Positions 1,128 through 54,432 of a DNA stretch of 64,000 nt are shown piece by piece. The stretch is from Chloroflexota bacterium (lineage in GTDB: Bacteria > Chloroflexota > UBA11872). A model generated the notes under the pieces. It saw only the letters and a program-made list of their open reading frames with translations, searched no databases and was not told the DNA's origin. Numbering within the stretch: position 1 is the stretch's first letter; each line of letters starts with the position of its first letter. The translations under genes were made by a program, and so were the position numbers. The stretch is from the NCBI GenBank assembly GCA_965220135.1, contig OZ244802.1, forward strand, positions 918,499-982,498, written 5' to 3'.

Positions 1128-1256
1128 CGCTATCTCCTCGCGGCACGGTCCCCCGTTAGCCGCGAACCGTAGCAGACGCGCCGTTCTCGGCCCGGTTGAC
1201 GTACCAATCCGGTGGGCGCAGCATTCCCTGAGCCATCAGGTTGGGAGTTCCGGTCC

Positions 1257-2684
1257 ATGAACGTCGTCCTCGTCGTCTTCGACACCCTCCGCAAAGACCA
1301 TCTCGGCGCCTACGGCAACGACTGGATCCGCACCCCCCACTTCGACGCCTTTGCCGCTCAGGCCATCCGCTGCACCCGCGCCTTCCCCGAGGCCCTGCCC
1401 ACCCTGCCGTTTCGCCGCGCCCTCCACACCGGCCAGCGAACCTTTCCCTACGTCGGCCACCGCGACTACAAGGGCGACTTCTCCGGCGCCCCCGGCTGGG
1501 GCCCCATCCCCGAAGAGCAGGACACCGTCTCCGAACTGCTGACCGACGCCGGCTACCGCACCGCCCTCTTCACCGACTGCTACCACCAGTTCAAGCCCAG
1601 CAAAAACTTCCACCGCGGCTTCGCCGAGTGGCAGTGGATTCGCGGCCAGGAAACCGACCGCTTCCGCTCAGGCCCTGCGCTTCCGCCCGACGCCATCCGC
1701 CGCCACGTCCCCGAACGCCTGCCCGAAAAGCACCAGCGCCGCGAATTCTTCACCCAGTACCTCACCAACAACCTGTTCCGGCGCGAGGAAGCCGACTACT
1801 ACCCCGCCCGCCTCTTTAACGACGCCGCCCGCTGGATCTATGACAACGACGACGCCGACGATTTCTTCCTCGTCGTCGACTCCTTCGACCCCCACGAACC
1901 CTGGGAGCCCCCCGCCAGCTACCGCCGCCTGTACGACCCGGACGATGACGTCACCGACATCATCCAGTCCCTGTATGCCCCCAACGGCAACGTGCTCAAC
2001 GAGCGCGAAGTCAAGCGCATCCAGGCCAACTACTCTGGCGAGGTCACCCTCTGTGACCGCTGGTTCGGCCACTTCATGGAACAGCTCGAACTCTCCGGCC
2101 GCGCCGACGAGACCATCGTCATCGTCGCCTCCGACCACGGCCACAACCTGCGCTACCCCGACGACAAGGACCTCATCAGCAAGCAGGGTCACCCCCTGAC
2201 TCGCGCCGTGGCCGACCTGGTGCTGCTGGTCCGCTACCCCGACCGCGCCCGCGCTGGTGAGACCTACGACGGCCTTGTCACCAACACCGACATCGCCGCC
2301 ACCGTCCTCGCCGCCGCCGGCGTCCAGGCGTCCACTGAAGGCCGGGACATCGGCCTTGCCCTCCGCGAAAACCTCCCGTCGCACCGCTCCCACGTCAGCA
2401 TCGGCTGGGGCCCGCTCATGACCGTCGTCACCGACGACTGGTGGTGCAACGCCACCATCTGGGGCGAAGAACCGCTCCTGCACAAGCTGCCCGACGACGA
2501 AATGCTCCGCACCAACGTCGCCGACGACCATCCCGACGTTGTCGAGGAACTCATCAACCTCGCCATCGCCGACGCCGGCGGCGAAATCCCCGCCCAATTC
2601 GCCGAGTTCAAAGACCGCCCCGGCTGCACCCCTTACCTCACCGCCATCCAAAAAGGCGACGACTACGTAGCCCGCCGGAGGTAG
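1257..2684 (+). CDS. sulfatase-like hydrolase (alkaline-phosphatase superfamily)
   Basis: MNVVLVVFDTLRKDHLGAYGN... with the SDHGH motif typical of the sulfatase family. GGGAG RBS before the ATG at 1257. The canonical CxPxR formylglycine motif is not evident (LPTLPFRR at the expected position). Confidence 0.75.
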   Translation: MNVVLVVFDTLRKDHLGAYGNDWIRTPHFDAFAAQAIRCTRAFPEALPTLPFRRALHTGQRTFPYVGHRDYKGDFSGAPGWGPIPEEQDTVSELLTDAGYRTALFTDCYHQFKPSKNFHRGFAEWQWIRGQETDRFRSGPALPPDAIRRHVPERLPEKHQRREFFTQYLTNNLFRREEADYYPARLFNDAARWIYDNDDADDFFLVVDSFDPHEPWEPPASYRRLYDPDDDVTDIIQSLYAPNGNVLNEREVKRIQANYSGEVTLCDRWFGHFMEQLELSGRADETIVIVASDHGHNLRYPDDKDLISKQGHPLTRAVADLVLLVRYPDRARAGETYDGLVTNTDIAATVLAAAGVQASTEGRDIGLALRENLPSHRSHVSIGWGPLMTVVTDDWWCNATIWGEEPLLHKLPDDEMLRTNVADDHPDVVEELINLAIADAGGEIPAQFAEFKDRPGCTPYLTAIQKGDDYVARRR

Positions 2685-2687
2685 CGC

Positions 2688-3752
2688 CTAAGCCACGAAC
2701 TCTTCCAACCGCACCGTTCGCCCCTCCTCGCTGCTCCGCACTCCCGCCGCAGCAATGCGGATCGAGTTCAGATTGTCCTGGCTCGACGTCAGCGGTTCCC
2801 GGCCCTCATTCAGCGCCGCCATCAACTCGCCCATGCTCCCGCCGAACGCCTCGGGGAACCACGAACCCTCGATCGGAAACCGCACCCGCCGCTCCGGTTC
2901 GTCGCGCTGCGTCACCTCCACCCACTGCGGCGTCCCCGTAATCGAGCCCTGCGCCCCGTCGATATGCCAGAACTCCGATTGCCCTGCTTTGCTCTGCACG
3001 ATGTTGTTGAAGTGATCGATCGCCGTCAGGTCGCCGCTGTCGAAGTGCAGCGCCAGCGTGTGACTCAACGGTGAGACCGCGTTCTGCCCTTGCATCATCG
3101 CCGTTGTCGCGCTCACCGCGTCCGGCGTGCGTCCGCTGAAGTGACGGATCAGGTCCAGGAAATGCACTCCGTGGTCCACGATGTTGAAATTCACCACGTC
3201 CCGCCACCACTTGTCCGGCTGGTCCTGGTAACTACGACGCACGTGCGCCACGCTGAACAGCGGACCGCAGATGCCCGAGTCGATCAACAGCTTGATCGCC
3301 GCGTGCGCCGGCGCCCAGCGCGCCTGCTGGTTGATCATCAGCGTCACCCCGGCGTCCCGCGCCGAGCTCGACAGCCACGCCGCGTCCTCCCAGGTCATCG
3401 CAAACGGCTTCTGCGACAGGATCGGCTTCCCCGCCTCCAGCAGCGCCGGCCACAGTTCCAGACGAGCGTGCGGATGCACCGCCAGGTCGATCACCTCAAC
3501 CTGCGGGTGCTCCAACACCACCCGCGGATCCGTCCCCGCCGCCTCGATCCCCCACCGCGCCTGCGTGGCTTCCACCGCCGTCCGATCGATGTCGCTGCAC
3601 GCCACCACCTCGTACCCAAAGTCCCGGTACGCCGGCAGGTGAGCCCCGTTCGCAATCCCCCCGCACCCGATCACCCCAATCCGGTAGTGCCGCCCTCGCG
3701 GCGCCTTCGGCCGATAGTCCTCGGGAGTCAGTCGCAAGTCATCCAGGTTCAT
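2688..3752 (-). CDS. Gfo/Idh/MocA family oxidoreductase
   Basis: Start chosen at MNLDDLRLTPEDY...YRIGVIGCGGIANGAHLPAY (ATG 3752..3750). The longer ORF to 4040 reads through a repeat-rich intergenic region and is unlikely to be coding. C-terminal Gfo/Idh/MocA dimerisation domain. Confidence 0.8.
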   Translation of the reverse strand: MNLDDLRLTPEDYRPKAPRGRHYRIGVIGCGGIANGAHLPAYRDFGYEVVACSDIDRTAVEATQARWGIEAAGTDPRVVLEHPQVEVIDLAVHPHARLELWPALLEAGKPILSQKPFAMTWEDAAWLSSSARDAGVTLMINQQARWAPAHAAIKLLIDSGICGPLFSVAHVRRSYQDQPDKWWRDVVNFNIVDHGVHFLDLIRHFSGRTPDAVSATTAMMQGQNAVSPLSHTLALHFDSGDLTAIDHFNNIVQSKAGQSEFWHIDGAQGSITGTPQWVEVTQRDEPERRVRFPIEGSWFPEAFGGSMGELMAALNEGREPLTSSQDNLNSIRIAAAGVRSSEEGRTVRLEEFVA

Positions 3753-3816
3753 ATCCACCGCCTCGGCGCCGATCGACGAGAGATTGCCACGCTCGCCAGG
3801 CGTCACAATTGGCCCG

Positions 3817-3938
3817 CCCCCGCTCGTGGTGAGCCGGGCCGGTGTACTCACCGGACCGTGTCGAACCACCCCCCCGCCGGACCCCACCCCGTTCGTGGTG
3901 AGCCGACCGGGAGTCTTCGGACGGTCGTGTCGAACCAC
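3817..3938 (+). repeat. two tandem imperfect ~50-bp repeats with internal hairpin potential (CG[C/T]TCGTGGTGAGCCG...GTCGTGTCGAACCAC)
   Basis: Direct repeat units at ~3817-3870 and ~3887-3938, each flanked by GTGGT...ACCAC and containing GGTGAG...CTCACC / CCGACC...GGTCG inverted segments. They lie in the non-coding gap between a Gfo gene and the CocE-like gene. Confidence 0.55.
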
Positions 3939-3982
3939 AGAGCCGACAGCACCCAAGCTCTCCCCCTCCCGTCTGGCGTACC

Positions 3983-4008
3983 GGCCGGTTTCTAACCGGC
4001 CTCTTTTG
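3983..4008 (+). terminator. intrinsic-terminator-like hairpin on + strand (GGCCGGTT-TCT-AACCGGCC followed by TCTTTTG)
   Basis: Perfect 8-bp GC-rich stem, 3-nt loop and a downstream T-run on the + strand. No annotated + strand gene ends upstream of it (an orphan terminator). Confidence 0.5.
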
Positions 4009-4208
4009 AGCACCCAACCACCTGACCCCTTCCAGGCCACACCGCCCGCTCAGCCAGATCGAATGCACCCAACCTCCGCCCCCTTCACTCACTCCTCGAT
4101 TACTGTGACAACCGCGCAACGCGGCGCACCATCGACCGACCGCGGCCTGCCCGGCCGGGCATCATGGGACGCGCTAGCGGCGCACGGCTCCAACACTGAG
4201 GTGACGGC

Positions 4209-6086
4209 TTGATCACGAACCGGACCGACTCACGCCAGCCTGACGCTGGATATCAGGGCTCACACCGTGCCTACGACTCGGTCGTAATTCCCGACATCCT
4301 CATTCCGGCGCGAGACGGCGTGCAACTGGCAGCCGACCTCTATCTGCCCGCCCTCGACGGCCGTGCGCTTGAGGCAGAGTTTCCTGCCCTGATTGAGCGC
4401 ACCCCCTACCTCAAGGACTCCGGCCGCTACGCCCGCAAGGCGCACTGGTTCGCTCGTCGCGGCTACGCGGTCATCATCAACGACGTCCGTGGCCGCGGCC
4501 GTTCCGGCGGCGAGTGGTATCCGTTTGCCAAAGAGGCGCCCGACGGCTACGACGCCGTGGAGTGGATCGCGGTCCAGCCCTGGTGCAATGGCCGCGTCGG
4601 CACCATGGGCGCCTCCTACGCCGGGTCCGACCAGAGCGCCCTCGCCACCCTCAACCCGCCCCACCTCCGCGCCCAGCTCGTCGGCCAGGGCACCAGCAAC
4701 TACCTGATTTCTTCAATGCGCCAGGGCGGCGCCCTCGAGCAGCGCTTCATCAGCTACGCCTACCGCATGGCCATCACCAGCCAGGAAGCCGGGGCTGATC
4801 CCGACCTCGAGCGCGTCCTCCGCGCCGAGTTCGATCGCGTTCCCGAGATCCTGGGCCCGCCTCTCCGCTTCCGCCCCGGTCGCACCGCCCTCCGCTTCCT
4901 CCCGCTCTACGAGCAATGGGCCTGGGACATCCTCACCCACGGCGGCAGCGGCCCCTACTGGTCCCAGCGCGGCTACGCCATCGACGAGTACTGGCACGAG
5001 CACGCCGACGTCCCGGTCCTCTTCCAGAGCGGCTGGTATGACACTTATCCCCGCGGCGCCATCGCCAACTTTCACGCCCTGCGGCGTCTCAAGTCAAGCC
5101 CCATGTCCCTGCTCCTCGGGCACTGGCGCCACGGCGAATCCACGACCGAGGAGACGTCCGCCGGCGACGTGGACCTCGGCCTCGAATCCGCGCTGCCCCT
5201 TTACGACGACCTGCGCCTCCGCTTCTTCGATCACCACCTCAAGGACATGGAAACCGGCCTCGACCGCGAGCCGCCCGTCCGCTACTTCGTCATGGGCGGC
5301 CAGCTCGGCCGCTCGCCGGCCGACCTCGAGGGCCGCCTTTGGCACGGCGGCCGTTGGGAAAAGTCCGACCAGTGGCCCCCGCCCGACGCCGCCGAGACCG
5401 CCCTCTTTCTGCAGGCGGATGGCTCCCTCGCCACGAACCCACCCGACGCCTCTACCGACCCGACCCGCTACACCTTTGACCCGCGCAATCCCGTCCCCAC
5501 CACCGGCGGCTCCATCAGCGCCGCCGAGGAGGCGCTGCCCTCCGGCGGCTTCGACCAGCGCGGCCAGCCCGGCCGCTTCCACGGCCACCACGACACCCTC
5601 TCGCTCGCCAGCCGGCCCGACGTGCTCAGCTTCGAGACCCCGCCGTTCGACGAAGCGTTCGAAATCGCCGGCCCCGTCGAGGTCGTGCTCTACGCCTCCA
5701 GCAGCGCTGTCGACACAGATTTCACCGCCAAGCTGCTGGACGTCTACCCGCACAGCCACGAAACGCCCGGCGGCTACGAACTCAACCTGGCCGACAGCAT
5801 CCTCCGCGCCCGCTATCGCAACGGCTTCGACCGCGAGGAGTTCCTCGAGCCCGGGGAAATCTACGAGTTCCGCATCGTCCTCTACCCCACCGCCAACCGC
5901 TTCGCTCCCGGCCACCGCCTGCGCGTGGACATCTCCTCCTCCAACTACCCCCGTTTCGACGCCAACCCCAACACCGGCGAGCCTTTAGGCGAATCGCGGC
6001 GCGTCGAGCCGGCCCACCAGGCCGTCTACCACGACCCCAACCACCCCAGCCGCCTCCTCATCCACGTCCGGCCTGTCGCGGAATGA
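4209..6086 (+). CDS. CocE/NonD family hydrolase (X-Pro dipeptidyl-peptidase S15-like alpha/beta hydrolase)
   Basis: 625 aa. DGVQLAADLYLP...RGRGRSGGEW... and the C-terminal beta-sandwich domain are typical of CocE/NonD. TTG start at 4209 with a GAGGTG RBS 7 nt upstream. Confidence 0.8.
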   Translation: MITNRTDSRQPDAGYQGSHRAYDSVVIPDILIPARDGVQLAADLYLPALDGRALEAEFPALIERTPYLKDSGRYARKAHWFARRGYAVIINDVRGRGRSGGEWYPFAKEAPDGYDAVEWIAVQPWCNGRVGTMGASYAGSDQSALATLNPPHLRAQLVGQGTSNYLISSMRQGGALEQRFISYAYRMAITSQEAGADPDLERVLRAEFDRVPEILGPPLRFRPGRTALRFLPLYEQWAWDILTHGGSGPYWSQRGYAIDEYWHEHADVPVLFQSGWYDTYPRGAIANFHALRRLKSSPMSLLLGHWRHGESTTEETSAGDVDLGLESALPLYDDLRLRFFDHHLKDMETGLDREPPVRYFVMGGQLGRSPADLEGRLWHGGRWEKSDQWPPPDAAETALFLQADGSLATNPPDASTDPTRYTFDPRNPVPTTGGSISAAEEALPSGGFDQRGQPGRFHGHHDTLSLASRPDVLSFETPPFDEAFEIAGPVEVVLYASSSAVDTDFTAKLLDVYPHSHETPGGYELNLADSILRARYRNGFDREEFLEPGEIYEFRIVLYPTANRFAPGHRLRVDISSSNYPRFDANPNTGEPLGESRRVEPAHQAVYHDPNHPSRLLIHVRPVAE

Positions 6087-6111
6087 CCGCCGGCTGCTCG
6101 GAGGAGTGGAA

Positions 6112-6648
6112 ATGACCGATCTAACGGTCGATAAGACCCGTCTGACGCTCGTCTGGGGCGACATCACTGTTCAGAAGGTCGACGCCATCGTGAACGCCGC
6201 CAACTCCGCCCTCAGGGGCGGTGGCGGCGTGGATGGCGCCATCCATCGCGCCGGTGGCCCCGACATCATGGCCGAGTGCCGCCGCATCGGCGGCTGTCCC
6301 ACCGGCCAGGCCGTCCGCACCACCGCCGGCCGCCTCTCCGCCAACCACGTCATTCACACCGTCGGCCCCGTCTGGTCCGGCGGCGATGCCGGCGAGCCCG
6401 ACCTGCTCGCCTCGGCCTACCGCCGCTCCCTCGAAGTGGCCGCCGCCCACGGCGCCCGCACCGTCGCCTTCCCCTCCATCAGCACAGGCGTCTACGGCTA
6501 TCCAAAGGACTTGGCCGCGGAGACCGCGCTGGATGCTGTGACCACCGCCGTCATCAACCTCGACATCGACCAGGTCCGTTTCGTCGTCTTCGGAGACGAC
6601 GACCTCGAGATCTACCAGCGGGCCATGCAGGCACGGGCGTCCGAGTGA
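6112..6648 (+). CDS. macro domain protein, O-acetyl-ADP-ribose deacetylase (YmdB/MacroD-like)
   Basis: LTLVWGDITVQKVDAIVNAANSALRGGGGVDGAIHRAGG...VAFPSISTGVYGYP is the canonical macro-domain signature. ATG at 6112 with a GGAGGAG RBS. Confidence 0.9.
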   Translation: MTDLTVDKTRLTLVWGDITVQKVDAIVNAANSALRGGGGVDGAIHRAGGPDIMAECRRIGGCPTGQAVRTTAGRLSANHVIHTVGPVWSGGDAGEPDLLASAYRRSLEVAAAHGARTVAFPSISTGVYGYPKDLAAETALDAVTTAVINLDIDQVRFVVFGDDDLEIYQRAMQARASE

Positions 6649-7286
6649 CGAACGACGCCGAACAACGCGCCGCTCGCCGCACCCGCGAGCATTGGGAGGC
6701 CAGGTACCAACAGCGCGAAACGCCCTGGGACGACGGCCAACCCTGGCGCCCGCTGCCCGATCTCCTTGCTCGTTTCGCCCCGCCCGGCGGGCGGCTGCTC
6801 GACATCGGCTGCGGCCTCGGCGGCAAAGCCGCGCAGATGGCCGCCCTCGGCTATCGAGTCCTCGGCGTCGACATCTCCCAGGCCGCAATCGACGAGGCCC
6901 AACGCCTGACTGCCGGTCTGGATGGAGTACTCGAATTTCGCCGCGCGAATTTCCTCGAAGAGTTCCCTGACACCCCATTCGACCTCGCTTTCGACCGCAG
7001 CGTCTGGGCCACCTTCGACGAATCGGGCCGCGCCGCGTTCGCCGGCCAGGTGGCCAAATGGCTCGTGCCCGGCGGTTACTGGATCAGCCTCACCGGCTGC
7101 GCCGACAACCGCGATCCCGAAACCGGCAAACCCGACCCGCGCGGCTATCCCAGGCACTCGCTCCAGGTCATCGTCGCCTGCTGCGAGCCCCACTTCGAAA
7201 TCCTCGAAGTCCGCCGCGAACCCTTCGGCGCAACCCCCGACACCGACTTCACCGCCTGGGCGACGGTCATGCGCGTTCGCTCGTAA
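6645..7286 (+). CDS. class I SAM-dependent methyltransferase
   Basis: LLDIGCGLGGKAAQMAALGYRVLGVDIS is the SAM-binding motif I. The GTG start overlaps the macro-domain stop (GTGA), indicating translational coupling. An alternative internal start is possible. Confidence 0.7.
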   Translation: MTNDAEQRAARRTREHWEARYQQRETPWDDGQPWRPLPDLLARFAPPGGRLLDIGCGLGGKAAQMAALGYRVLGVDISQAAIDEAQRLTAGLDGVLEFRRANFLEEFPDTPFDLAFDRSVWATFDESGRAAFAGQVAKWLVPGGYWISLTGCADNRDPETGKPDPRGYPRHSLQVIVACCEPHFEILEVRREPFGATPDTDFTAWATVMRVRS

Positions 7287-7502
7287 GTGCGGCGGGATCC
7301 AAGGACTGCGGGCTGAGGCATGGCTGGAGACTGAGTGGTTTGTCGAGGTTCGTAGACTAAACGGGTCCACGAGAGCCCGAGCCACACGAGAGCCAGAGCC
7401 AATAGTGATTGCATTCCGGATTGCGGTGTGGATGGTCCTCGAGGTGTCGTGCAAGTCGCTGAGAGGAATCGGCGAAGTCGAGACTCCTCGTAGAGTCTCG
7501 GG

Positions 7503-9122
7503 ATGACCGACAGCAGGGTTGGGGAGTTGCGGGCGGCGGCGCGGGCGTTGTGCGTGGAGACGGCGCCGGTGGAGTTCGGGCTGGCGAATTATGACCTGGC
7601 CGGAGCGCTGCTCGAAGGGGATGCGCCGACCGACGAGTTAGAGGAAGCGGCGCAGGCGGCGGCGCGGGCGTTGCTGGTGTTCACGCCGCAAGAGCTTCCT
7701 GACCTCTTTGCAGGAGCAAGTGAACGACTGGGACAGGCGCAGTGGCAGGCCGGGCGCCGCGAGGATGCGCAGCGCACATACACGCAGACAGCTGGGGCGC
7801 TGGGCGCGGTTGGCCACCATGCGCTGCAAGCCCGGCTGCTGGCGGGTTACGCGCGGGCGGCCGGCCAGGCAGCGAAGCTGGACGATCCGTTCAGCGTCCG
7901 ACAGGCAGTTGGGGTCTTCGACGAAGCGATCGCGGCGGCGCGGAAGGCCGAGGCGCGGGGGCTGCTGGTGTCACTGCTGAACGGTTCGGGGCGGCTGCTG
8001 GCGAGCACTCCGGCGTCAGCGGATGAGGCGTTGTCGAGGTTCGACGAAGCGGCCGACGTCGTAAACGACGCCGAGGTGGGCGTAGCGATGGCGGTTCATG
8101 CAAACCGGGCGGCAGCTTACGGGTTGCGGGAGAGGGGCGATCGGGACACGAATCTGCAAGAGGCGATTGCAAGTTATAACCGGGCGCTTCACCTGCCCGG
8201 CATTTCGGAGCATCCAGCGGAAGCGGCGCAGCTTTACCGGGCGCTGGGGACAGCGTGGGGGCAGCGGCCGGGCGGGGACCGGGCGCAGAATCTGCGGCAG
8301 GCCGACAGCGCGTTGCAGACGGCGATCGAGCTGCTGCCGGCCGACGGCCGGGCCGACGAACTTGCGTCAATGTGGAACGAGCGGGGGCTGGCGCAGACGG
8401 AATTGGCACAGCGCGGGATTCCGGGGTCGACCGACGCGGCGGTGAAGGCGTTTCGCGAAGGACTGACGGCGGCCAGCGAGGGCGAGGCGTCGGCGCTGGC
8501 GGCTCAACTGGCGAACAACCTGGGGTCGGCGATCATGACGGCGGCGAACCAGGGGCTGGAGGCGTCGCTACCCGAGGCCACCGCGGCACTGGATCGGGCA
8601 GCGGTCCTGTGGACGTCGCTGGGTCGACCGGAGGACGCGGGAGCGAGCCAGCTGAACGCGGGGCTGGTGTACCTGACATTGCATTCGACAGAGCGGGACG
8701 CAACGTACCTGGACCGGGCAATCGAACGGCTTCAGGCTTCGAGCGTGGCGCGTCCGCTGGCGACGCACCCGGCGCCGCACGCGGTGGCGCAGTTCAACCT
8801 GGGGATGGCGCTGGCATTTCGAGCGCAGGGCCGCAGCGCGCCGGACCTGGCGGCGAGCGTGGATGCGTTTCGGGCAGCGTTGCAAGTGTGGACGGGTCCG
8901 AACGCTCCGCCGCAGGCGGCGGTGGCGCACGCAAACCTGGGGAGCATGTTGTTCGGGATGGCGAAGCAGAACGAGCCCGACTTGCTGCGCGAAGCGGCGT
9001 ATCACTACGAGCAGGCCCTACAGGTGTACACGCCAGACACGAACCCGCAGCAGCACCAGGTAATTTCGAACAACCTGGCGTTGCTTCGACAGCGGCAGGC
9101 GGCGGGCAATGGGGCGGTCTGA
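7503..9122 (+). CDS. TPR-like repeat protein (Ala-rich, hypothetical)
   Basis: 539 aa with repeated A..Y..AL..-type TPR-like helices (AIASYNRALHL, AVKAFREGLTA, AAYHYEQALQVYT). G-ending codon preference matches the downstream housekeeping genes. Confidence 0.65.
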   Translation: MTDSRVGELRAAARALCVETAPVEFGLANYDLAGALLEGDAPTDELEEAAQAAARALLVFTPQELPDLFAGASERLGQAQWQAGRREDAQRTYTQTAGALGAVGHHALQARLLAGYARAAGQAAKLDDPFSVRQAVGVFDEAIAAARKAEARGLLVSLLNGSGRLLASTPASADEALSRFDEAADVVNDAEVGVAMAVHANRAAAYGLRERGDRDTNLQEAIASYNRALHLPGISEHPAEAAQLYRALGTAWGQRPGGDRAQNLRQADSALQTAIELLPADGRADELASMWNERGLAQTELAQRGIPGSTDAAVKAFREGLTAASEGEASALAAQLANNLGSAIMTAANQGLEASLPEATAALDRAAVLWTSLGRPEDAGASQLNAGLVYLTLHSTERDATYLDRAIERLQASSVARPLATHPAPHAVAQFNLGMALAFRAQGRSAPDLAASVDAFRAALQVWTGPNAPPQAAVAHANLGSMLFGMAKQNEPDLLREAAYHYEQALQVYTPDTNPQQHQVISNNLALLRQRQAAGNGAV

Positions 9123-9870
9123 CCCGTACGGCGCGGAGAGTCGAGACCTAGCCTTGTTTTCCAGCATCGCCAGCTCTTGCGAGGCGTTCCGTCCTGCGCA
9201 GCGACGGGGCTGCCGTGACTCGGAGGGCGCTTCCGGCCGACCGTTGATCCGTCTGTGGTTCCGGGCCTTGTGCATCTGAGCCTGGAGTTGGCAGCACTGG
9301 CGGCGGTTGGGACTGATCGTGGTCTCGGAAGTTACGACCGCAGCCGGGTTGCGATCCTCCCTGGCCGACGGCTGCTTGCCGAACGTGAGCTTGCCGTGGG
9401 CGGCGGAGATTGAGGCAGCGCCGGCGAGTTTCTGGCGTCCACGCTGTGTGCTGGCCTTTGTGTCGCTGGAAGGGTTGACTGCAACGCGCGGGCAGGGAAC
9501 GTCGACCAGGCGAGTCGTGGCGGCCCTGGTGGGCTTCGTGGGTCTACTTGACGAGCCGGTGGCACTAATGGTGTTGGCGCTGTAGATCGTCTAGGAGGCC
9601 GGGTGGTTCATTCAGGCGCGACCAGGATGCGTCCCGACGGGTAGCGTAGCGGTACGTGCCGCTTCAGGACCGATTGGAGAGGCGTCGCGGGCTTCGACAG
9701 ATTCCTGATACAGCGAGTCGCGGTGAGCGACGCCGAAGGATTGGAGCTAATGGGGCGGGCTGTTGAAATGCCCGGGACGAGTTCACTAGCGAGCGGGGAC
9801 CGAATGAAAGGCTTGGATGTTGGCGTTCGGTAGTAGCTCGAAGCAGGCCGCCACGAACGGGAGTTGCGCG

Positions 9871-9899
9871 TTGACCGGGGGAGAGGGGCGTGCCAGTAT
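9871..9899 (+). promoter_or_regulatory. sigma70-like promoter for the SRP RNA (-35 TTGACC, 17-nt spacer, -10 CAGTAT)
   Basis: TTGACC at 9871-9876, a 17-nt spacer and CAGTAT at 9894-9899, about 8 nt upstream of the predicted SRP RNA 5' end. Confidence 0.55.
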
Positions 9900-9907
9900 C
9901 GAAATGA

Positions 9908-10176
9908 GGCCGCGCTAGGTGGGGAGCTAGCGGTGCCCTTGAGCCGCAATCCGCTATAGCGGGCTGAATCCCCGCCCGAGGTCCCTCCGCAACGTGTCTG
10001 CCGTCGACGCTCGGTATTGAACGCCGGGCCTCGTGCGACGAAGGCCTTCCAACCCCGTCAGGTCCGAGAGGAAGCAGCGGTACGAAGCCCCCTTCGGGCG
10101 CCGCGAGTCCACCTGGCCGGAGCCGCGGCCCGTCGGTAAGGCGTTGCTGGTGGGTTCGACGGCGGGTGCGCGGCCT
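9908..10176 (+). ncRNA. ffs: signal recognition particle RNA, large Bacillus-type form with Alu domain (4.5S/scRNA)
   Basis: Domain IV motif GTCAGGTCCGAGAGGAAGCAGC is present. The 5' Alu-domain segment GCTAGGTGGGGAGCTAGCGGTGCCC...GCAATCCGCTATAGCGGGCTGAATCCCC closely parallels B. subtilis scRNA. The 5' GGCCGCGC pairs with the 3' GCGCGGCC. It sits directly upstream of dnaX, a conserved synteny. Confidence 0.85.
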
Positions 10177-10187
10177 CTATCTCTATC

Positions 10188-11858
10188 ATGACGCTGCCGT
10201 CATGCCGGGAGGCTTCCGTGGCCGCGTCGCGTCCGCCATCGTTCCAAGCGCTGTATAACCGCTACCGCCCGCAGCGGTTCGACGAGCTAATTGGCCAGGA
10301 ACACGTGGTGCGGACGCTGCAGAACGCTCTGGTGCACAATCGGCTGAGCCATGCGTACCTGTTCTCCGGCGAACGAGGCACAGGCAAGACTACGGCGGCG
10401 CGGCTGCTGGCGAAGGCGGTGAATTGCCTGGAGGGTATCCAGGCGGAGACGTGCGGCAGCTGCGAGCACTGCCAGGCCGTCGCGAACGGGTCGTTCCTGG
10501 ACCTGATCGAGATGGACGCGGCCTCGCACCGGGGAATCGACGATATCCGGGAGATCCGGGAGCTGACGCAGTTTGCGCCAGGGGCGGGGCGCTATCGCGT
10601 ATACATCATCGACGAGGTTCACCAGCTTTCAGCGCCGGCCAAGGACGCGCTGCTGAAGACGCTGGAGGAGCCGCCGCCACAGACGCTTTTCGTGCTAGCG
10701 ACGACGGAGCCGCACCGGGTCCCGGCGACAATCCGGTCGCGGACGCAGCACCTGACATTCCGTCGCATCGGCGTGCTGGAGCTGACCGCTCAGCTGCGCA
10801 GCATTGCCGAGACCGAGGGCGCTGAGATCGAGGAGGCTGCACTACATACGCTGGCTCGCAACGCCGGCGGCAGCGCGCGGGACGCGGTGAGCTTGCTGGA
10901 CCAGGCGCTGGCCTATAGCGATAACGAGGCCACCGCGGATGCCGTGAACTCAATGCTTGGGCTGACGGGCCGCGACGCGGTGATCCAACTGCTCGGCCAC
11001 CTGCTGGACGGCGACGCGGCGTCAGGACTGCAGGCGATCGAACGCGCAATCGAAGACGGCACAAGCCCGAACACGCTGCGACAGCAGATTATCGACATCC
11101 TGCGGGACATCCTGATTCTGAAGACTTCACGCGAATCGACGTCCGTCGGCCACCTGACAGAGGACGAGGCGTTCGAGTTGACGCGGCGCACGGAGAATTC
11201 GAGCCTGCGCGACATCGTGCGCACGCTGGAAGTGTTCGCGGAGCCGGACCCGCCGTCACGGACAGGGGTGGACGCGACGCTGGAGTTGGAACTGGCGTTC
11301 GCGCGGGCGGTACTGGCGATTACGGAGACTTCAACGCCGGCGGTGACCGCCGCACAAGCCCAGGCAACCCGGCAGCCGGTTAGCGCGCCGGCCGCACTGC
11401 CACAGCCCGCGCCCGCCGCCAAAGCACCGGCCACGGACGTTGCCCGGCCGCCGGCACCGCAACCCGTGAGCGCGGCGGATGGCGAAATCACGGCGGCCTC
11501 GATTGCCGCCTGCAAGGACGCGTGGGTTTCGGTGATCCGCCAGGAGTCGCGCGAGATCGCGCCGTACGTTGGCGAAGCCGAGGTGATCGCCTATTCGGAC
11601 GGCACCGTGACCCTGGGCTACCGCAGTGGCTTCCTGTTCGACCGGGTACAGAGGCCCGATGCGCTTCGGCAAGTCGCACGGGCCCTGTCGCAGGTGCTGG
11701 GCCATCCGATTCAGATTCAGAACGAGCAGCGGGGCACAATGGCGCCAACGACACGCCCATCGACCGGGCCGGCTCACAATGACGATCCGGTCGTACGCGT
11801 CGCAATGCGCGAGTATGGAGCCAAACCGATCTCAGACAGTTCCGCCACGGGAGGTTGA
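10188..11858 (+). CDS. dnaX: DNA polymerase III subunit gamma/tau
   Basis: YRPQRFDELIGQEHVVRTLQNAL...LFSGERGTGKTTAARLLAKAVNC (AAA+ Walker A, clamp-loader motifs). An alternative GTG start at 10218 has a better GGGAGG RBS. Confidence 0.9.
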   Translation: MTLPSCREASVAASRPPSFQALYNRYRPQRFDELIGQEHVVRTLQNALVHNRLSHAYLFSGERGTGKTTAARLLAKAVNCLEGIQAETCGSCEHCQAVANGSFLDLIEMDAASHRGIDDIREIRELTQFAPGAGRYRVYIIDEVHQLSAPAKDALLKTLEEPPPQTLFVLATTEPHRVPATIRSRTQHLTFRRIGVLELTAQLRSIAETEGAEIEEAALHTLARNAGGSARDAVSLLDQALAYSDNEATADAVNSMLGLTGRDAVIQLLGHLLDGDAASGLQAIERAIEDGTSPNTLRQQIIDILRDILILKTSRESTSVGHLTEDEAFELTRRTENSSLRDIVRTLEVFAEPDPPSRTGVDATLELELAFARAVLAITETSTPAVTAAQAQATRQPVSAPAALPQPAPAAKAPATDVARPPAPQPVSAADGEITAASIAACKDAWVSVIRQESREIAPYVGEAEVIAYSDGTVTLGYRSGFLFDRVQRPDALRQVARALSQVLGHPIQIQNEQRGTMAPTTRPSTGPAHNDDPVVRVAMREYGAKPISDSSATGG

Positions 11859-11861
11859 CGC

Positions 11862-12158
11862 ATGTCGATGAAGATGTTCCGGCAGTTCCAGAAGCAGATG
11901 GAGAAGGTTCAGGACGAACTGAAGCAGATGACGGTGGAGGCCACGGCGGGCGGCGGCGCGGTCAGGGTGGTTGCCACCGGGGATCAGCGGGTGGTGTCGA
12001 TTGACATCGATTCAGCTGTGATCGATCCGGAGGACGCGGAGTTGCTGTCCGAAATGATCCTGGTGGCCGTGAACGATGCCATGGAGCAGTCGCAGGAACT
12101 GGCCAAGAGCAAACTGGGCGGGCTGACCGGCGGGCTGAAGATTCCGGGCCTGGGCTAG
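11862..12158 (+). CDS. ybaB: YbaB/EbfC family nucleoid-associated protein
   Basis: 98 aa. MFRQFQKQMEKVQDELKQMTVEATAGGGAVRVVATGDQRVVSIDID is the classic YbaB signature. Conserved dnaX-ybaB-recR order. Confidence 0.9.
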   Translation: MSMKMFRQFQKQMEKVQDELKQMTVEATAGGGAVRVVATGDQRVVSIDIDSAVIDPEDAELLSEMILVAVNDAMEQSQELAKSKLGGLTGGLKIPGLG

Positions 12159-12161
12159 CGC

Positions 12162-12764
12162 GTGGCGGACGCGCTGCCCCACGCGGTCACGCGGCTAATC
12201 GAGGAGTTGACGCGACTGCCGACGGTGGGGCCGAAGACGGCGCAGCGGCTGGCGTTCTTCCTGCTGCGCGGATCGTCAGGGCAGGCGCGCACGTTGGGGA
12301 CGGCGATTGAGGCGCTGCACGAGGGGATCCAGACGTGCGAGCGCTGCCGAAATTTCGCGGACAGCAACCCGTGCGCGATCTGCCAGGACCCGACGCGGAA
12401 TACGGCGTTGCTTTGCGTGGTAGAAGATCCTCTGGACTTGGTGGCGGTTGAGAATTCGGGTGGATTCAATGGGCTGTATCACGTGCTGCACGGAGCGATT
12501 TCGCCGCTGGAGGGAATCGGGCCGGACGACCTGACGATCGATCTGCTGGTGCGGCGGGCGGGGCGCGAGCGGATCGGCGAGGTGGTGATTGCGACCAACG
12601 CGACGATCGAGGGCGATGCCACGGCGATGGAGATCCGGCAGCGGCTTGGCGATCTTGGCGTGCGGGTTACTCGACTGGCGCGTGGACTCGCGACGGGCGG
12701 CGACATTGAGTACGTTGACGCCGCAACGATCGCGCAGGCACTGGAGGGTCGGCGTGAACTCTGA
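12162..12764 (+). CDS. recR: recombination protein RecR
   Basis: LPTVGPKTAQRLAFFLL (HhH), the C4 zinc finger CERCRNFADSNPCAIC, and a Toprim domain. GTG start. Confidence 0.9.
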   Translation: MADALPHAVTRLIEELTRLPTVGPKTAQRLAFFLLRGSSGQARTLGTAIEALHEGIQTCERCRNFADSNPCAICQDPTRNTALLCVVEDPLDLVAVENSGGFNGLYHVLHGAISPLEGIGPDDLTIDLLVRRAGRERIGEVVIATNATIEGDATAMEIRQRLGDLGVRVTRLARGLATGGDIEYVDAATIAQALEGRREL

Positions 12765-13470
12765 ACTTTCTGCCCAATCCGGCGACCAGGCGACGCGGCT
12801 GCGCTGGCTGGGTCACGCGACGTTTCTGCTGAGCAGTCCCGGCGGGGTGCAGGTGCTGCTGGACCCGTTTAACGTGGAACTCGGGTATCCAGTGCCTGAC
12901 TTGCCGCCGATTGACCTAGTCGCGGTCAGCCACGAGCACGCCGATCACAACAACGTGGGGCTGGCGCCGGGGACGCCGAAGGTCGTGCGGGGCATCTCGG
13001 ACAGCGGCTGGCATCCGGGCACGGTGACTGTGGGGGACGTGACGCTGAGCATGATCGGCGGGGCGTATCACGACGAATCGCAAGGCCGGGAGCGCGGACG
13101 TACAGCGTTCATGTCGTTTGAGGTGGGCGGGCTACGCCTGCTGCACCTGGGGGACCTGGGGCACCGGTTGGATACGAATCTGCTGGCGCAGTGCCGCGGA
13201 CACCAGGTACTGCTGATCCCGGTGGGTGGTTTCTTCACGATCGACGGCGAGACGGCAGGCGCGACGATGGATGAGATTGGGCCCGCGATCGCGATTCCGA
13301 TGCACTACCGGACGCCGCGCTTACCGGGACATCCCACGGCTCCGCTGAACGAGACCGGATTCCTGGTTGGCCGCGAGGTGCGGCGGGTGGCGGAGACCGA
13401 GATAGCGCTGCGGCCGGAGGAGCTCCCGGCGCTGCCCGAAGTCGTGGTGCCGGCAGTGCCGGGCGGCTAG
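12754..13470 (+). CDS. MBL-fold metallo-hydrolase
   Basis: LRWLGHATFLL...VSHEHADH matches the HxHxDH metallo-beta-lactamase motif. The GTG start overlaps the recR end by 11 nt, with a GGAGGG RBS. Confidence 0.7.
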   Translation: MNSELSAQSGDQATRLRWLGHATFLLSSPGGVQVLLDPFNVELGYPVPDLPPIDLVAVSHEHADHNNVGLAPGTPKVVRGISDSGWHPGTVTVGDVTLSMIGGAYHDESQGRERGRTAFMSFEVGGLRLLHLGDLGHRLDTNLLAQCRGHQVLLIPVGGFFTIDGETAGATMDEIGPAIAIPMHYRTPRLPGHPTAPLNETGFLVGREVRRVAETEIALRPEELPALPEVVVPAVPGG

Positions 13471-14021
13471 GTTCCCGGTTGGCGCGGGGGCAGGCAGGTT
13501 ACTTCGGCATCCTTGGTCAGATCGTCAAAGTACGCCTCGCGGACGTTGCCAACTTCGACGGAGGAAATTCGCGCTGAGACCCGCACGGGTTCGTGGACGA
13601 GGCAGCGAAGGGCCGACTCCCAGCGCAGCGTGACGCCGGCCCGCAGGCGTTCGGGAACCCAGGTCAGCGTCTTGGTTTCGCGAGCACCGCCGCCTACTTC
13701 CCGGCCGCCTTCGTTCGTGATCTTCGCGCGGGTGGTTGGACTGTAGTCCCGGTCCGATCCCGCATTTTCCGCGAGCGTCAGGGAGGTTTCGACCAGGACG
13801 TCGGTTTGACCGATATTGGTCGCCAGCAGAATCACGTTCGTGCGGCTGGGGCCGACTTCCTCCGTCTGAATCTCGAATTTGAGCTCGGGGTCGGGGGTGG
13901 GCGTGGCGAGGGGCTCGACAGTTCCGTCGCACGTCATGGCCGCCAGTCCAAGCGACAGGACGAGCACTAGCGCGATCACGGACGCCGGGCGCCGTCGTAA
14001 GGCAGAGTTCCGCAGGTTCAT
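13467..14021 (-). CDS. hypothetical lipoprotein (signal peptide + lipobox LAAMTC)
   Basis: N-terminal MNLRNSALRRRPASVIALVLVLSLGLAAMTCDG is a signal peptide with a Cys lipobox. No recognisable domain. Confidence 0.55.
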   Translation of the reverse strand: MNLRNSALRRRPASVIALVLVLSLGLAAMTCDGTVEPLATPTPDPELKFEIQTEEVGPSRTNVILLATNIGQTDVLVETSLTLAENAGSDRDYSPTTRAKITNEGGREVGGGARETKTLTWVPERLRAGVTLRWESALRCLVHEPVRVSARISSVEVGNVREAYFDDLTKDAEVTCLPPRQPGT

Positions 14022-14034
14022 GACATAGAGCTTA

Positions 14035-15234
<1,200 letters not shown>

Positions 15235-15406
15235 TTGAGCCGTGCAGTTCCGACGGCCGCTCGGCACATGGGGATCCTGGCCAGTCCTCCGAACTCTCGA
15301 CGGCCAAGGCTCTAGCCGAGCGCGACCGGTTCCGCGCATACTGTAGGCAGCGTGGACGAGGCACCCGGGCTCGGAGCCGGGTGCTCATTCGGGCGGTGGA
15401 GGCCCA

Positions 15407-16690: not shown

Positions 16691-16697
16691 GCGCGGC

Positions 16698-19118: not shown

Positions 19119-19121
19119 ACC

Positions 19122-19406
19122 GTGGATCTGGCAGGCGTTCGCGACATCGCGGTGGTGGTGCTGGCGGCAGTGGCCCTGGTTGCCACGCTTGTGCTTCTCA
19201 TTACTGGAATGCTGGTCTGGCGTCTATTGGCAGCAATCAGGACCGACGTTGCGCCAATCATTCAGTCAGCGCGTGAAACCGTTGACACGGTCAGAGACAC
19301 CACGGAACTCGTGAGCGACGTAGTGAAGGACGGCACCAGTTCAACCTCCGGCGCGGTCAAGAAGTTTCGTCGCGTTCTGCGTATGGCGCTCCGCTGGTGG
19401 AGCTAG
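19122..19406 (+). CDS. small membrane protein (DUF948-like), hypothetical
   Basis: 94 aa. One N-terminal TM helix followed by a charged helix. GTG start 3 nt after the upstream stop. Confidence 0.5.
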   Translation: MDLAGVRDIAVVVLAAVALVATLVLLITGMLVWRLLAAIRTDVAPIIQSARETVDTVRDTTELVSDVVKDGTSSTSGAVKKFRRVLRMALRWWS

Positions 19407-19655
19407 GTGGATGCCACCTTGACCTGGGTCATTATCGGGGCAGCCATTGGGTTCTTTGTCGGGGGAGCCATTGGAACCGTCCTCGCGCCGCAGCGCACGC
19501 AGAGGGTCTTGGACGGGCTGCCGGAACGGTTTAGCGCAATTCGCAACTCGGCGCAGCGGGCGGCCAACGAGGCGGAGGTACGCGTCCGTCGCCGCTCCCA
19601 GCGCTCGCGCGGGCGCCGCCGCCGACGCGGCCGCGGACGCCGCGGTAGGGGCTGA
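19407..19655 (+). CDS. small membrane protein (YtxH/GXXXG-type TM helix, Arg-rich tail), hypothetical
   Basis: 82 aa. IIGAAIGFFVGGAIG TM helix. GTG start directly abutting the previous stop. Confidence 0.45.
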   Translation: MDATLTWVIIGAAIGFFVGGAIGTVLAPQRTQRVLDGLPERFSAIRNSAQRAANEAEVRVRRRSQRSRGRRRRRGRGRRGRG

Positions 19656-19969: not shown

Positions 19970-19993
19970 ACGGCAGGCAGCCGAGGGCGTTGC

Positions 19994-20626: not shown

Positions 20627-20631
20627 ACGGT

Positions 20632-21234: not shown

Positions 21235-21238
21235 CTCA

Positions 21239-22015: not shown

Positions 22016-22075
22016 CCGGGAGCACGTAGTGCTAGCCTTCCCGCTAACACGCGCACCACACGACGGATCCTCGGC

Positions 22076-22900: not shown

Positions 22901-22921
22901 CGGGCCACCGGTACCAGCGGC

Positions 22922-24187: not shown

Positions 24188-24190
24188 GGC

Positions 24191-26445: not shown

Positions 26446-26449
26446 TCTG

Positions 26450-28630: not shown

Positions 28631-28644
28631 TAGACTCGCGCACT

Positions 28645-54404: not shown

Positions 54405-54432
54405 TGCCCCCTCGTTTAGAGCGCCTCGCCAG

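What the first reader, a model, noticed from the sequence alone, without database searches (positions are those of the whole stretch)
6645..9122. Abrupt inversion of third-codon-position strand bias inside the 216-bp gap 7287-7502
To the left of ~7300, + strand genes are almost purely C-ending at the wobble position: GCC, CCC, ACC, CTC, CGC and GGC in the sulfatase-like, CocE-like, macro-domain and methyltransferase genes. Minus-strand genes there are G-ending, as seen in both Gfo/Idh/MocA genes. The + DNA strand is therefore strongly C-enriched at wobble positions. From the TPR gene at 7503 onward, + strand genes switch to GCG/CTG/CCG/ACG/CGG and minus-strand genes lean to C-ending codons, so the + strand becomes G-enriched. 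A sign flip of GC skew this sharp, localised to one intergenic region, is the classic signature of a replication origin or terminus, of a recent inversion breakpoint, or of an assembly chimera. The gap is lower-GC and has a TGTGGATGG near-DnaA-box. A perfect CGAGACTC-ctcgta-GAGTCTCG hairpin abuts the TPR start codon.
Basis: seen in the sequence. Interest (0 to 1): 0.7.

Follow-up and report, generated by a model that had tools for sequence, protein, structure and literature searches.

The report
Sharp GC-skew switch; probable replication origin
The strand bias really does flip within about 55 bases at the end of a methyltransferase gene, at the same spot in five assemblies of related uncultured Chloroflexota. 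It is most likely where chromosome replication starts, although the usual origin signals are missing.

Summary
The cumulative GC skew of the window has its minimum at 7256, and the G/C change-point has a support interval of 7238-7293. At four-fold degenerate sites the + strand skew is -0.48 to -0.73 on the left, whatever the gene strand. It is +0.67 in the first gene on the right. The same switch, about 30 nt before the methyltransferase stop codon, is found in five assemblies of at least three species. One is a genome whose genes beyond the TPR-like gene differ and whose dnaX lies 286 kb away. An assembly chimera is excluded. An inversion still carrying its old skew is strongly disfavoured: the left-arm bias has not decayed since the species split, and C-to-G and G-to-C changes are roughly balanced. 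The polarity is that of an origin, with the G-rich strands running away from the site. The dnaX cluster keeps its coding strand on the G-rich strand on whichever side it sits. The best reading is therefore the chromosomal replication origin (confidence 0.6). There is no DnaA-box cluster, AT-rich stretch or nearby dnaA. Only one 19-nt element is conserved (7349-7367). The patchy skew on the right arm remains unexplained.

The parts
1..7256 (.). Left arm. The + strand is strongly C-rich, with bulk skew about -0.2 and four-fold-site skew -0.48 to -0.73, in genes on both strands (Gfo/Idh/MocA, sulfatase, Gfo/Idh/MocA, S15 peptidase, macro domain, methyltransferase).
   Evidence: It continues at least 2.4 kb further left in L001. 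In scaffold_49 it continues to about 23 kb from the switch.
6645..7286 (+). Class I SAM-dependent methyltransferase gene (TPMT / Methyltransf_25). Its last ~30 nt hold the switch point.
   Evidence: Pfam. The gene is adjacent to the switch in window, L001, L003, L094 and L096.
7238..7293 (.). Support interval of the G/C change-point, with the best estimate at 7256. This is where the strand bias changes sign.
   Evidence: The homologous positions are L001 9754 and L003 6917, L094 13048 and L096 1900.
7287..7502 (.). Intergenic gap of 216 bp, 59.7% G+C and already G-rich (+0.26). It is poorly conserved between species apart from one element.
7349..7367 (+). The only conserved non-coding element, TTCGTAGACTNANCGGNTC. 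It is single-copy and lies 55-63 nt after the methyltransferase stop in every genome that has the junction. Its function is unknown; a TPR-gene promoter or regulatory site, or an origin-linked site, are possibilities.
   Evidence: It was not called as a sigma-70 promoter by the consensus scan.
7368..7401 (+). Tandem duplication of a 17-nt unit, CACGAGAGCC(C/A)GAGCCA. There is one copy only in L003.
7427..7435 (-). It is not conserved and occurs at chance density.
7479..7500 (+). Perfect 8-bp stem with a 6-nt loop, ending 2 nt before the ATG. It is only partly kept in L003 and absent in L094 and L096.
   Evidence: The fold of 7349-7520 is not better than shuffles (z = -1.3).
7503..9122 (+). Alanine-rich helical-repeat protein of 539 aa. 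It has only sub-threshold TPR hits. It is the first gene of the G-rich arm (four-fold skew +0.67) and is conserved next to the switch (90% identity in L003, 75-76% in L094).
9123..9909 (.). Non-coding stretch of 787 bp, G-rich (+0.20). The first ~200 bp are conserved with L003. The middle ~530 bp cannot be aligned, and this is the synteny breakpoint with other genera. The last 42 nt are the conserved SRP RNA promoter region.
9910..10173 (+). Signal recognition particle RNA (bacterial large type). It starts the conserved SRP RNA-dnaX-ybaB-recR block.
   Evidence: (148 bits).
10188..12764 (+). dnaX (10188-11858), ybaB (11862-12158) and recR (12162-12764). This block lies on the G-rich strand here, and on the G-rich or unbiased strand in every relative examined, whichever side of the switch it sits.
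7257..28700 (.). Right arm, where the + strand is G-rich in genes of both strands (+0.05 to +0.67 at four-fold sites). Beyond 28.8 kb the bias is near zero, with positive islands at 53.6-55.2 kb and 60-64 kb.

Best explanation
The switch marks the place where the two replication forks of this Chloroflexota chromosome set off in opposite directions. That makes it the chromosomal replication origin, at or within a few tens of bases of the methyltransferase stop codon and the 216-bp gap.

In this lineage replication imposes an unusually strong strand-specific mutation bias. The strand made as leading strand becomes G-rich, and slightly A-rich, at neutral sites. DNA to the left therefore has C on the + strand and DNA to the right has G.

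**Shown**
- The sign change, its sharpness and its independence from gene orientation.
- Its conservation at one homologous position in several species.
- Its persistence over time.

**Inferred**
- That the asymmetry is caused by replication direction.
- That the site is the origin rather than some other fixed boundary.
For: 1. **Sharp change-point of origin polarity.** It lies at 7256, with a support interval of 7238-7293.
2. **The bias follows the DNA strand, not the gene strand, and is also present in non-coding DNA**.
3. **Long reach.**
   - At least 9.7 kb to the left in the window's species.
   - About 23 kb in scaffold_49.
   - The homologous block remains strongly biased for another ~13 kb in a 3.55-Mb chromosome.
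   - On the right the sign never turns clearly negative over 57 kb.
4. **Same position in five assemblies of at least three species**. This includes scaffold_49, where the genes beyond the TPR homologue are unrelated yet read +0.49 to +0.72.
5. **Steady state.**
   - Four-fold divergence between the window and L003 is 0.166, which gives a per-lineage memory factor of about 0.75.
   - A wrongly oriented block should therefore have fallen to about -0.35. It stands at -0.69 and -0.74.
   - Polarised C>G against G>C counts are 13:6 and 15:7.
6. **The SRP RNA-dnaX-ybaB-recR block changes sides but keeps its orientation.**
   - It lies 2.6 kb to the right of the switch here.
   - In scaffold_49 it lies 286 kb to the left.
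   - In the 3.65-Mb chromosome it lies about 140 kb across from the ArgG block.
   - It always points away from the switch and sits on the G-rich or unbiased strand.
   - From established knowledge, this is the pattern left by rearrangements that pivot on an origin.
7. **In chromosome CBDHGI010000006.1** the skew in contig orientation is negative at 224-234 kb and positive at 370-391 kb. An origin-type switch therefore lies between the same two blocks there too.
Against: - There is no cluster of DnaA boxes within 1 kb of the switch in any of four genomes. Density is at background.
- No k-mer is repeated in the gaps of the three species compared, the window, L003 and L094.
- There is no AT-rich stretch. 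The minimum is 50-52% G+C in 40-50 nt, which is not exceptional for the locus.
- No dnaA, dnaN, gyrB or parAB gene lies within the 64-kb window or the fetched flanks.
- The gap is poorly conserved apart from one 19-nt element.
- The skew on the right arm is much weaker on average (about +0.05) than on the left (-0.2) and is patchy. The orthologous dnaX block is unbiased in some relatives.
- In chromosome OY282448.1 no clear switch is seen between the two blocks.
- No whole chromosome could be read, so it is not shown that this is the global skew minimum.
Confidence: 0.6

Rival explanations
1. The switch is an old rearrangement junction, from an inversion or translocation. It joined two segments that had been replicated in opposite directions. 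The skew is a scar rather than a mark of present replication.
For: Gene order breaks just to the right of the TPR gene when compared with other genera. The dnaX block sits in different places relative to the ArgG block in different genomes. No origin hallmarks are found at the site.
Against: - The switch is at the methyltransferase/TPR junction, not at the synteny break.
- It stays there in scaffold_49, where the right-hand neighbours are different and also strongly G-rich.
- The junction predates the window-L003 split, yet neither arm has decayed.
- C>G and G>C fluxes are near balance once parsimony bias is allowed for.
- Both arms next to the junction have the largest skews seen anywhere in the data.
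Confidence: 0.12
2. The site is a fixed boundary of a strand-asymmetric process other than a canonical DnaA/oriC origin. Examples are an initiation site that does not use DnaA boxes, or a locally acting mutational process whose strength falls off with distance. This would give a strongly biased domain around the junction and little bias elsewhere.
For: - Skew strength is patchy and seems highest around the junction.
- Distant conserved blocks are unbiased in the same genome. In scaffold_49 the dnaX block, 286 kb away, is about 0.
- Origin motifs are absent and a single conserved 19-nt element is present.
Against: - No such process is known in bacteria (own knowledge).
- Left-arm bias shows no decline over 23-36 kb.
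- Strongly biased islands recur far from the junction, at 53.6-55.2 kb and 60-64 kb.
- DUF58 and TgpA genes are low in every genome, which points to gene-specific history rather than distance.
Confidence: 0.2
3. The site is the replication terminus in a lineage in which the leading strand is C-rich rather than G-rich.
For: There is no direct evidence. Only the lack of origin motifs at the site leaves it open.
Against: - A G-rich leading strand is the general rule in bacteria (own knowledge).
- SRP RNA, dnaX-ybaB-recR and tRNA-Pro lie on the G-rich strand, as expected if that strand is the leading one.
- There is no dif-like core.
Confidence: 0.04
4. The switch is an assembly chimera that joins contigs from two places or two organisms.
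For: None beyond the abruptness of the switch.
Against: The same junction is present in independent assemblies from different samples, assemblers and species. These are an ENA scaffold and a Logan contig, a GenBank MAG, a second ENA scaffold and Logan contig, and a JGI contig. G+C content and codon-position G+C are alike on both sides.
Confidence: 0.01

Closest known systems
Bacterial chromosomal origin located by the cumulative GC-skew minimum (Lobry / Grigoriev type analysis; oriC)
   Same: The skew changes from minus to plus and the cumulative skew has a minimum. The bias follows the DNA strand rather than the gene strand. The position is conserved among relatives. Essential and highly expressed genes (SRP RNA, dnaX) point away from the site.
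   Different: - There is no DnaA-box cluster, AT-rich unwinding element or adjacent dnaA/dnaN.
- The intergenic DNA is poorly conserved.
- The skew is several times stronger than usual. Here the G-C excess is about 0.13 per nucleotide on the left arm, computed. SkewDB gives about 2.5% as typical (PMC8941118).
- The switch can be placed to within about 55 nt.
Firmicute-type discordant skew (G and A both enriched on the leading strand)
   Same: At four-fold sites A goes with G. The right arm has A 107 and T 71. The left arm has T 78 and A 65 on the + strand. SkewDB describes discordant GC/TA skew for Firmicutes within the Terrabacteria (PMC8941118).
   Different: This organism is a Chloroflexota MAG with 65-68% G+C. 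The bias here is seen at synonymous sites of genes on both strands, so it does not come from gene-strand bias.
Skew anomalies caused by inversions, horizontal transfer or misassembly
   Same: An abrupt local sign change next to a synteny breakpoint.
   Different: The switch is conserved across species and stationary in time. It is not at the synteny breakpoint itself.

Membership tests
DnaA-dependent bacterial oriC | GC-skew polarity switch from minus to plus (cumulative skew minimum) at the site | tested here: met
   The minimum is at 7256 and the change-point interval is 7238-7293. The same is seen in L001, L003, L094 and L096. It has been shown only locally, within the 64-kb window and +/-10-kb loci, not for a whole chromosome.
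DnaA-dependent bacterial oriC | Cluster of DnaA boxes (TTATCCACA-like 9-mers) | tested here: not met
   There are no boxes with up to 1 mismatch in the gap or in 9123-9909. There is one box with 2 mismatches, at a background density of about 0.9 per kb, and it is not conserved. No shared repeated k-mer is found in three species. A lineage-specific box of different sequence cannot be excluded.
DnaA-dependent bacterial oriC | AT-rich DNA unwinding element | tested here: not met
   The lowest G+C near the switch is 50-52% per 40-50 nt, equal to the 1st percentile of the locus and above its minimum.
DnaA-dependent bacterial oriC | Neighbourhood of dnaA/dnaN or other origin-linked genes | tested here: not met
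   Pfam scans of the window's genes and the precomputed domains of flanking loci show no DnaA, DnaN, GyrB or ParAB. The SRP RNA-dnaX-ybaB-recR cluster is 2.6 kb away here, but it is not linked to the switch in scaffold_49. Adjacency to dnaA is common but not obligatory (own knowledge).
DnaA-dependent bacterial oriC | Position conserved among related genomes | tested here: met
   The same homologous nucleotide position is found in at least three species.
DnaA-dependent bacterial oriC | Replication demonstrably starts there (marker frequency, 2-D gels, autonomous replication) | not testable with these tools
   No reads or experiments are available.
Replication terminus / dif | Plus-to-minus skew switch | tested here: not met
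   The polarity is the opposite.
Replication terminus / dif | 28-bp XerC/D dif site with a CATAA-N6-TTATG-like core | tested here: not met
   There is no match with up to 2 mismatches within 40 kb of the switch.
Recent inversion breakpoint | Skew out of equilibrium, with a net flux that erodes the bias of the mis-oriented segment | tested here: not met
   The skew is undecayed since the window-L003 split. C>G:G>C is 13:6 and 15:7. The overall flux away from C (45:11) is of the size expected from parsimony bias plus the general GC-to-AT mutation pressure. That expectation is my own estimate.
Recent inversion breakpoint | Junction absent from close relatives | tested here: not met
   The junction is present in every relative that has the methyltransferase and TPR genes.

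The most novel reading that the evidence does not exclude
This uncultured Chloroflexota genus starts chromosome replication at a compact site that lacks recognisable DnaA boxes and an AT-rich unwinding element. The site is marked only by a conserved 19-nt element between a methyltransferase gene and a TPR-like gene. Its replication machinery imposes one of the strongest strand mutation biases seen in bacteria, with 72-79% of neutral sites being one base. That bias is strong enough to place the fork divergence point to within about 55 nt from sequence alone.
Probability: 0.2. Interest if true: 0.7.

Novelty: new member of a known kind. Interest (0 to 1): 0.5.

Why it matters
If this is the origin, it gives a near-nucleotide map of where replication forks diverge in a bacterial group that has never been grown. 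It would also show that an origin can lie far from dnaA and carry none of the motifs that origin-finding programs rely on.

The strength of the bias makes this lineage a natural system for studying replication-linked mutation. Up to 79% of four-fold sites are C on one strand, and the bias differs between orthologous blocks in sister genera.

Practically, the result shows that this abrupt skew change is not a misassembly. Genome curators often use such changes as an error flag.

Tried and rejected
- **DnaA-box searches.** I searched with the E. coli and high-GC consensus at 0-2 mismatches in the window and in four genomes. Only background density was found.
- **Shared repeats.** A search for any k-mer repeated in the gaps of three species found nothing meaningful.
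- **dif-like core.** None near the switch.
- **Rfam.** A permissive threshold on 7100-9950 returned only the SRP RNA.
- **Promoter and terminator scan of 7100-10300.** Nothing found.
- **RNA fold of 7349-7520.** Not better than shuffles.
- **Conservation downstream of the TPR gene.** None between the window genus and scaffold_49.
- **Walking to the window's own source contig.** Exact look-up of its S15 peptidase found nothing on record. The window is a strain 96-98% identical to L001 and L002.
- **Metagenome scan with the TPR protein.** No relatives. The scan with the methyltransferase gave one useful short contig.
- **Polymorphism flux.** Polarised changes between the window and L001 proved hard to read. 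The differences are clustered, which indicates recombination patches, and parsimony is biased at skewed composition. I used only the C>G:G>C ratio.
- **Gene-orientation bias.** It was too weak to inform polarity. About 61% of right-arm genes and about 35% of left-arm genes are co-oriented with the origin model, counted.
- **dnaA.** I could not locate it in any relative, because the tools gave no way to search those chromosomes for it.
Full report

Yes. In 2-kb windows the GC skew of the + strand is -0.18 to -0.27 from base 1 to 7000. It is +0.15 to +0.17 from 7001 to 10000. The cumulative skew of the whole 64-kb window has its minimum at 7256.

A maximum-likelihood change-point analysis on G against C places the switch at 7256. 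The 2-log-likelihood support interval is 7238-7293, and the gain over a no-change model is 136 log-likelihood units. The next largest step between adjacent 3-kb windows anywhere in the window is 0.16, against 0.35 here.

I called genes by codon-position G+C and measured skew at four-fold degenerate sites.

| Feature | Gene strand | Four-fold skew on the + strand |
|---|---|---|
| Five left-arm genes | both | -0.48 to -0.73 |
| TPR-like gene (7503-9122) | + | +0.67 |
| dnaX | + | +0.37 |
| ybaB | + | +0.30 |
| MBL-fold gene | + | +0.46 |
| Minus-strand gene 13467-14021 | - | +0.14 |

Pooled four-fold sites on the + strand are as follows.

| Region | C | G | A | T |
|---|---|---|---|---|
| Left arm | 963 | 222 | 65 | 78 |
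| 7.5-14 kb | 210 | 595 | 107 | 71 |

Non-coding DNA shows the same sign: +0.26 in the gap and +0.20 in 9123-9909. The bias therefore tracks the DNA strand, not gene families and not the coding strand.

- The switch lies about 30 nt inside the 3' end of the methyltransferase gene, at the left edge of the gap, rather than inside the gap.
- The G-richness on the right is not uniform. It is about 0 between 28.8 and 53.6 kb, with positive islands at 53.6-55.2 kb and 60-64 kb.
- The gap is only modestly lower in G+C, at 59.7%.

**2. What surrounds it?**

The genes left of the switch are a Gfo/Idh/MocA oxidoreductase (minus strand), a sulfatase (+), a second Gfo/Idh/MocA (minus), an S15 peptidase (+), a macro-domain protein (+) and a class I methyltransferase (+, 6645-7286).

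To the right the order is:
- the 216-bp gap;
- a 539-aa alanine-rich helical-repeat protein with only sub-threshold TPR hits;
- 787 bp of non-coding DNA;
- the SRP RNA (9910-10173, 148 bits);
- dnaX, ybaB, recR and an MBL-fold gene.

No DnaA, DnaN, gyrase or ParAB gene is in the window. The organism is an uncultured Chloroflexota bacterium.

**3. Not a chimera.**

The exact TPR protein is encoded on an ENA scaffold (L001, 224 kb) and on a Logan contig (L002). Both carry the same junction and are 96-98% identical to the window. A GenBank MAG of another species (L003) has the same gene order from sulfatase to DUF58, with DnaX 92% and TPR 90% identical. Its change-point is at the homologous position, 6917.

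**4. The switch belongs to the methyltransferase/TPR junction, not to dnaX.**

In genomes whose DnaX is about 82% identical (L004-L006), gene order matches the window only from the SRP RNA promoter rightwards. I used homologues of ArgG, FmdA and DnaX, and cluster members of the S15 peptidase, to place the blocks on long contigs.

| Contig | Location of the switch | Position of dnaX relative to it |
|---|---|---|
| Window genus | methyltransferase/TPR junction (window 7256) | 2.9 kb to the right (SRP RNA at 2.6 kb); ArgG 8.4 kb to the left in L001 |
| NGUY21-1 scaffold_49 (427 kb) | about 304.2 kb, locus L094 13048 (13030-13075), again ~30 nt before the methyltransferase stop | 17-19 kb on the minus strand, 286 kb to the left, pointing away |
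| CBDHGI010000006.1 (3.65 Mb) | not read directly; skew is negative at 224-234 kb and positive at 370-391 kb | dnaX at 222-224 kb (minus strand); FmdA at 380 kb (plus strand) |
| ERZ25068585 contig_1 (3.55 Mb) | not reached | dnaX and FmdA blocks 148 kb apart, same orientation and same skew sign, so one replication arm |

Further points:
- In scaffold_49 the gene to the right is the TPR homologue (75% identity), but the genes beyond it are unrelated to the window's. They are a halogenase-like flavoprotein, a solute-binding protein, an N-acetyltransferase and a Gfo/Idh/MocA enzyme. On both strands they read +0.49 to +0.72 at four-fold sites.
- The left arm there is -0.45 to -0.83 out to about 23 kb from the switch, apart from a toxin-antitoxin pair near zero and one DUF429 gene at -0.26.
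- A fifth assembly, a 2.3-kb JGI contig (L096), has the change-point at the same place.
- In CBDHGI010000006.1 a methyltransferase of the same 90% cluster is on that chromosome.

**5. Not a decaying inversion scar.**

The junction is shared by the window and L003, so it is older than their split. Their four-fold-site divergence on the left arm is 0.166. With the observed base composition this corresponds to a per-lineage memory factor of about 0.75 under an F81-type model.

Suppose a block with skew -0.7 had been placed against the replication direction at or before that split. It should by now stand at about -0.35 or closer to zero. The observed values are -0.69 (window) and -0.74 (L003). These match the 0.6-0.8 seen for the same genes in scaffold_49 and contig_1.

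Polarised changes tell the same story:
- Window against L001, with L003 as outgroup: C>G 13, G>C 6.
- Window/L001 against L003, with scaffold_49 as outgroup: C>G 15, G>C 7.
- A mis-oriented block would give a ratio above 20:1. Equilibrium gives 1:1, inflated to roughly 2:1 by parsimony error at this composition (my estimate).
- The overall excess of changes away from C (45:11) consists mostly of C>T. It is of the size expected from that same error plus the general GC-to-AT mutation pressure.

**6. Polarity and the origin reading.**

The G-rich strand runs away from the site on both sides. By the general rule for bacteria (own knowledge) this marks an origin, not a terminus. Two independent facts support the polarity. 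The SRP RNA, dnaX-ybaB-recR and tRNA-Pro lie on the G-rich strand. The dnaX cluster keeps that relation in every relative examined, whichever side of the switch it lies on. Blocks that change arm but keep their orientation relative to fork movement are what rearrangements pivoting on an origin produce (own knowledge). No dif-like core is present.

**7. What argues against a canonical oriC.**

- No DnaA box with up to one mismatch lies in the gap or in 9123-9909.
Such matches occur at 0.8-0.9 per kb throughout.
- That box is TTTGGGTGC in L003 and absent in L094 and L096.
- No k-mer is repeated in the gaps of all three species compared.
- The lowest G+C near the switch is 50-52% per 40-50 nt, which is unexceptional.
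- The hairpin at 7479-7500 is real but not conserved.
- The only conserved non-coding sequence is a single 19-nt element, TTCGTAGACTNANCGGNTC (7349-7367). It lies 55-63 nt after the methyltransferase stop in all genomes with the junction, and nowhere else in the window or the other loci. Its role is unknown. It could simply be the promoter or operator of the TPR gene.

**8. What remains unexplained.**

Skew strength is uneven.
- The window's right arm averages about +0.05, against -0.2 on the left.
- The DUF58 and TgpA-like genes are near zero in every genome, even where their neighbours are +0.5 to +0.7.
- The orthologous dnaX block is unbiased in L004-L006 and scaffold_49, intermediate in the window, L003 and L091, and strong in L007 and contig_1.
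- In chromosome OY282448.1 the two blocks keep the divergent arrangement, but no clear switch is visible.

These facts fit a fast-evolving bias combined with frequent transfer, recombination and relocation of blocks. The window-L001 differences are strongly clustered, which indicates recombination patches. The facts do not prove that explanation, and they leave room for a process whose strength varies along the chromosome.

**9. How unusual is it?**

SkewDB describes GC skew as typically about 2.5%, and notes that G and T usually go together except in Firmicutes (PMC8941118). Here the G-C excess on the left arm is about 0.13 per nucleotide (skew 0.2 times G+C 0.68). Between 72 and 79% of four-fold sites carry one base. 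A goes with G.

**10. Verdict.**

Chimera and terminus are rejected, and a recent inversion is strongly disfavoured. The most likely explanation is the chromosomal replication origin of this Chloroflexota genus, or the point where its forks diverge, at confidence 0.6. The open caveats are that no canonical origin motif is present and that no whole chromosome could be examined.

It is a new member of a known kind of feature. Three points are unusual: the extreme bias, the 55-nt resolution and the missing DnaA-box cluster. They deserve a check on the complete chromosomes named in the next steps.

Noticed in passing
window 7349-7367 (also L001 9847, L003 7010, L094 13133, L096 1988): A single-copy 19-nt element, TTCGTAGACTNANCGGNTC, is the only conserved sequence in the otherwise fast-diverging methyltransferase/TPR intergenic region. 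It always lies 55-63 nt after the stop codon.
   Followed up: partly
window 15407-19118 (DUF58 and TgpA-like transglutaminase genes); same genes in L003, L004-6, L088, L089, L091: These two syntenic genes have near-zero four-fold GC skew (0.02-0.23) in every genome. This holds even where the genes on both sides are +0.5 to +0.7. Their G+C at third positions is also lower here (0.69-0.74).
   Followed up: partly
window 28797-53607: A 25-kb stretch has essentially no strand bias. It holds glycosyltransferases, an 822-aa WD40 protein (31388-33856), a desaturase, a cyclopropane-fatty-acid synthase-like gene, sugar-acid enzymes, an aquaporin and others. Biased DNA lies on both sides. It may be recently acquired or relocated DNA.
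   Followed up: no
window 53613-55233 (minus strand): Two adjacent PhyH-family dioxygenase paralogues are strongly biased (+0.45 and +0.51 on the + strand). They form an island in an unbiased neighbourhood.
   Followed up: no
window 1-19118 compared with L001: Divergence between the window and its closest strain is mosaic. There are 0-3 differences per 500 bp from 6.5 to 17.5 kb, but 20-48 per 500 bp in much of 1-3 kb, 5-6 kb and 17.5-19 kb. This suggests patches of homologous recombination.
   Followed up: partly
window 7284-7286: The methyltransferase stop codon TAA is AAA in L001 and L002, which extends the protein there from 213 to 223 aa.
   Followed up: no
window 7368-7401: A 17-nt unit, CACGAGAGCC(C/A)GAGCCA, is tandemly duplicated in the window. 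L003 has a single copy.
   Followed up: no
window 9330-9860: About 530 bp of G-rich non-coding DNA upstream of the SRP RNA cannot be aligned with L003, whose spacer is longer. It has no Rfam hit, and its only ORF (9307-9585) has no Pfam hit. This is where gene order with other genera breaks.
   Followed up: partly
four-fold sites, window 1-14021: The TA skew is discordant with the GC skew. A accompanies G on the presumed leading strand (A 107 : T 71 on the right; T 78 : A 65 on the + strand on the left). SkewDB describes this pattern for Firmicutes.
   Followed up: partly
L001 1604-2282; L083 3776-9448; L092 5864-9899; L091 1-9319: The space between ArgG and the Gfo/Idh/MocA-sulfatase genes, and the space upstream of dnaX, hold different small cassettes in different genomes. 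They include FitA/PIN and PemK toxin-antitoxin pairs, DUF429, a HicB-like antitoxin, DUF4411 with an M78 peptidase, and an Eco57I-like restriction-modification gene. These look like insertion hotspots.
   Followed up: no
window 37186-39022 and 49658-51583: Two stretches of about 1.8-1.9 kb had no gene by my codon-position caller. The second lies in a region of strong A-over-T excess (AT skew +0.19 to +0.22 at 49-52 kb). I did not examine them.
   Followed up: no
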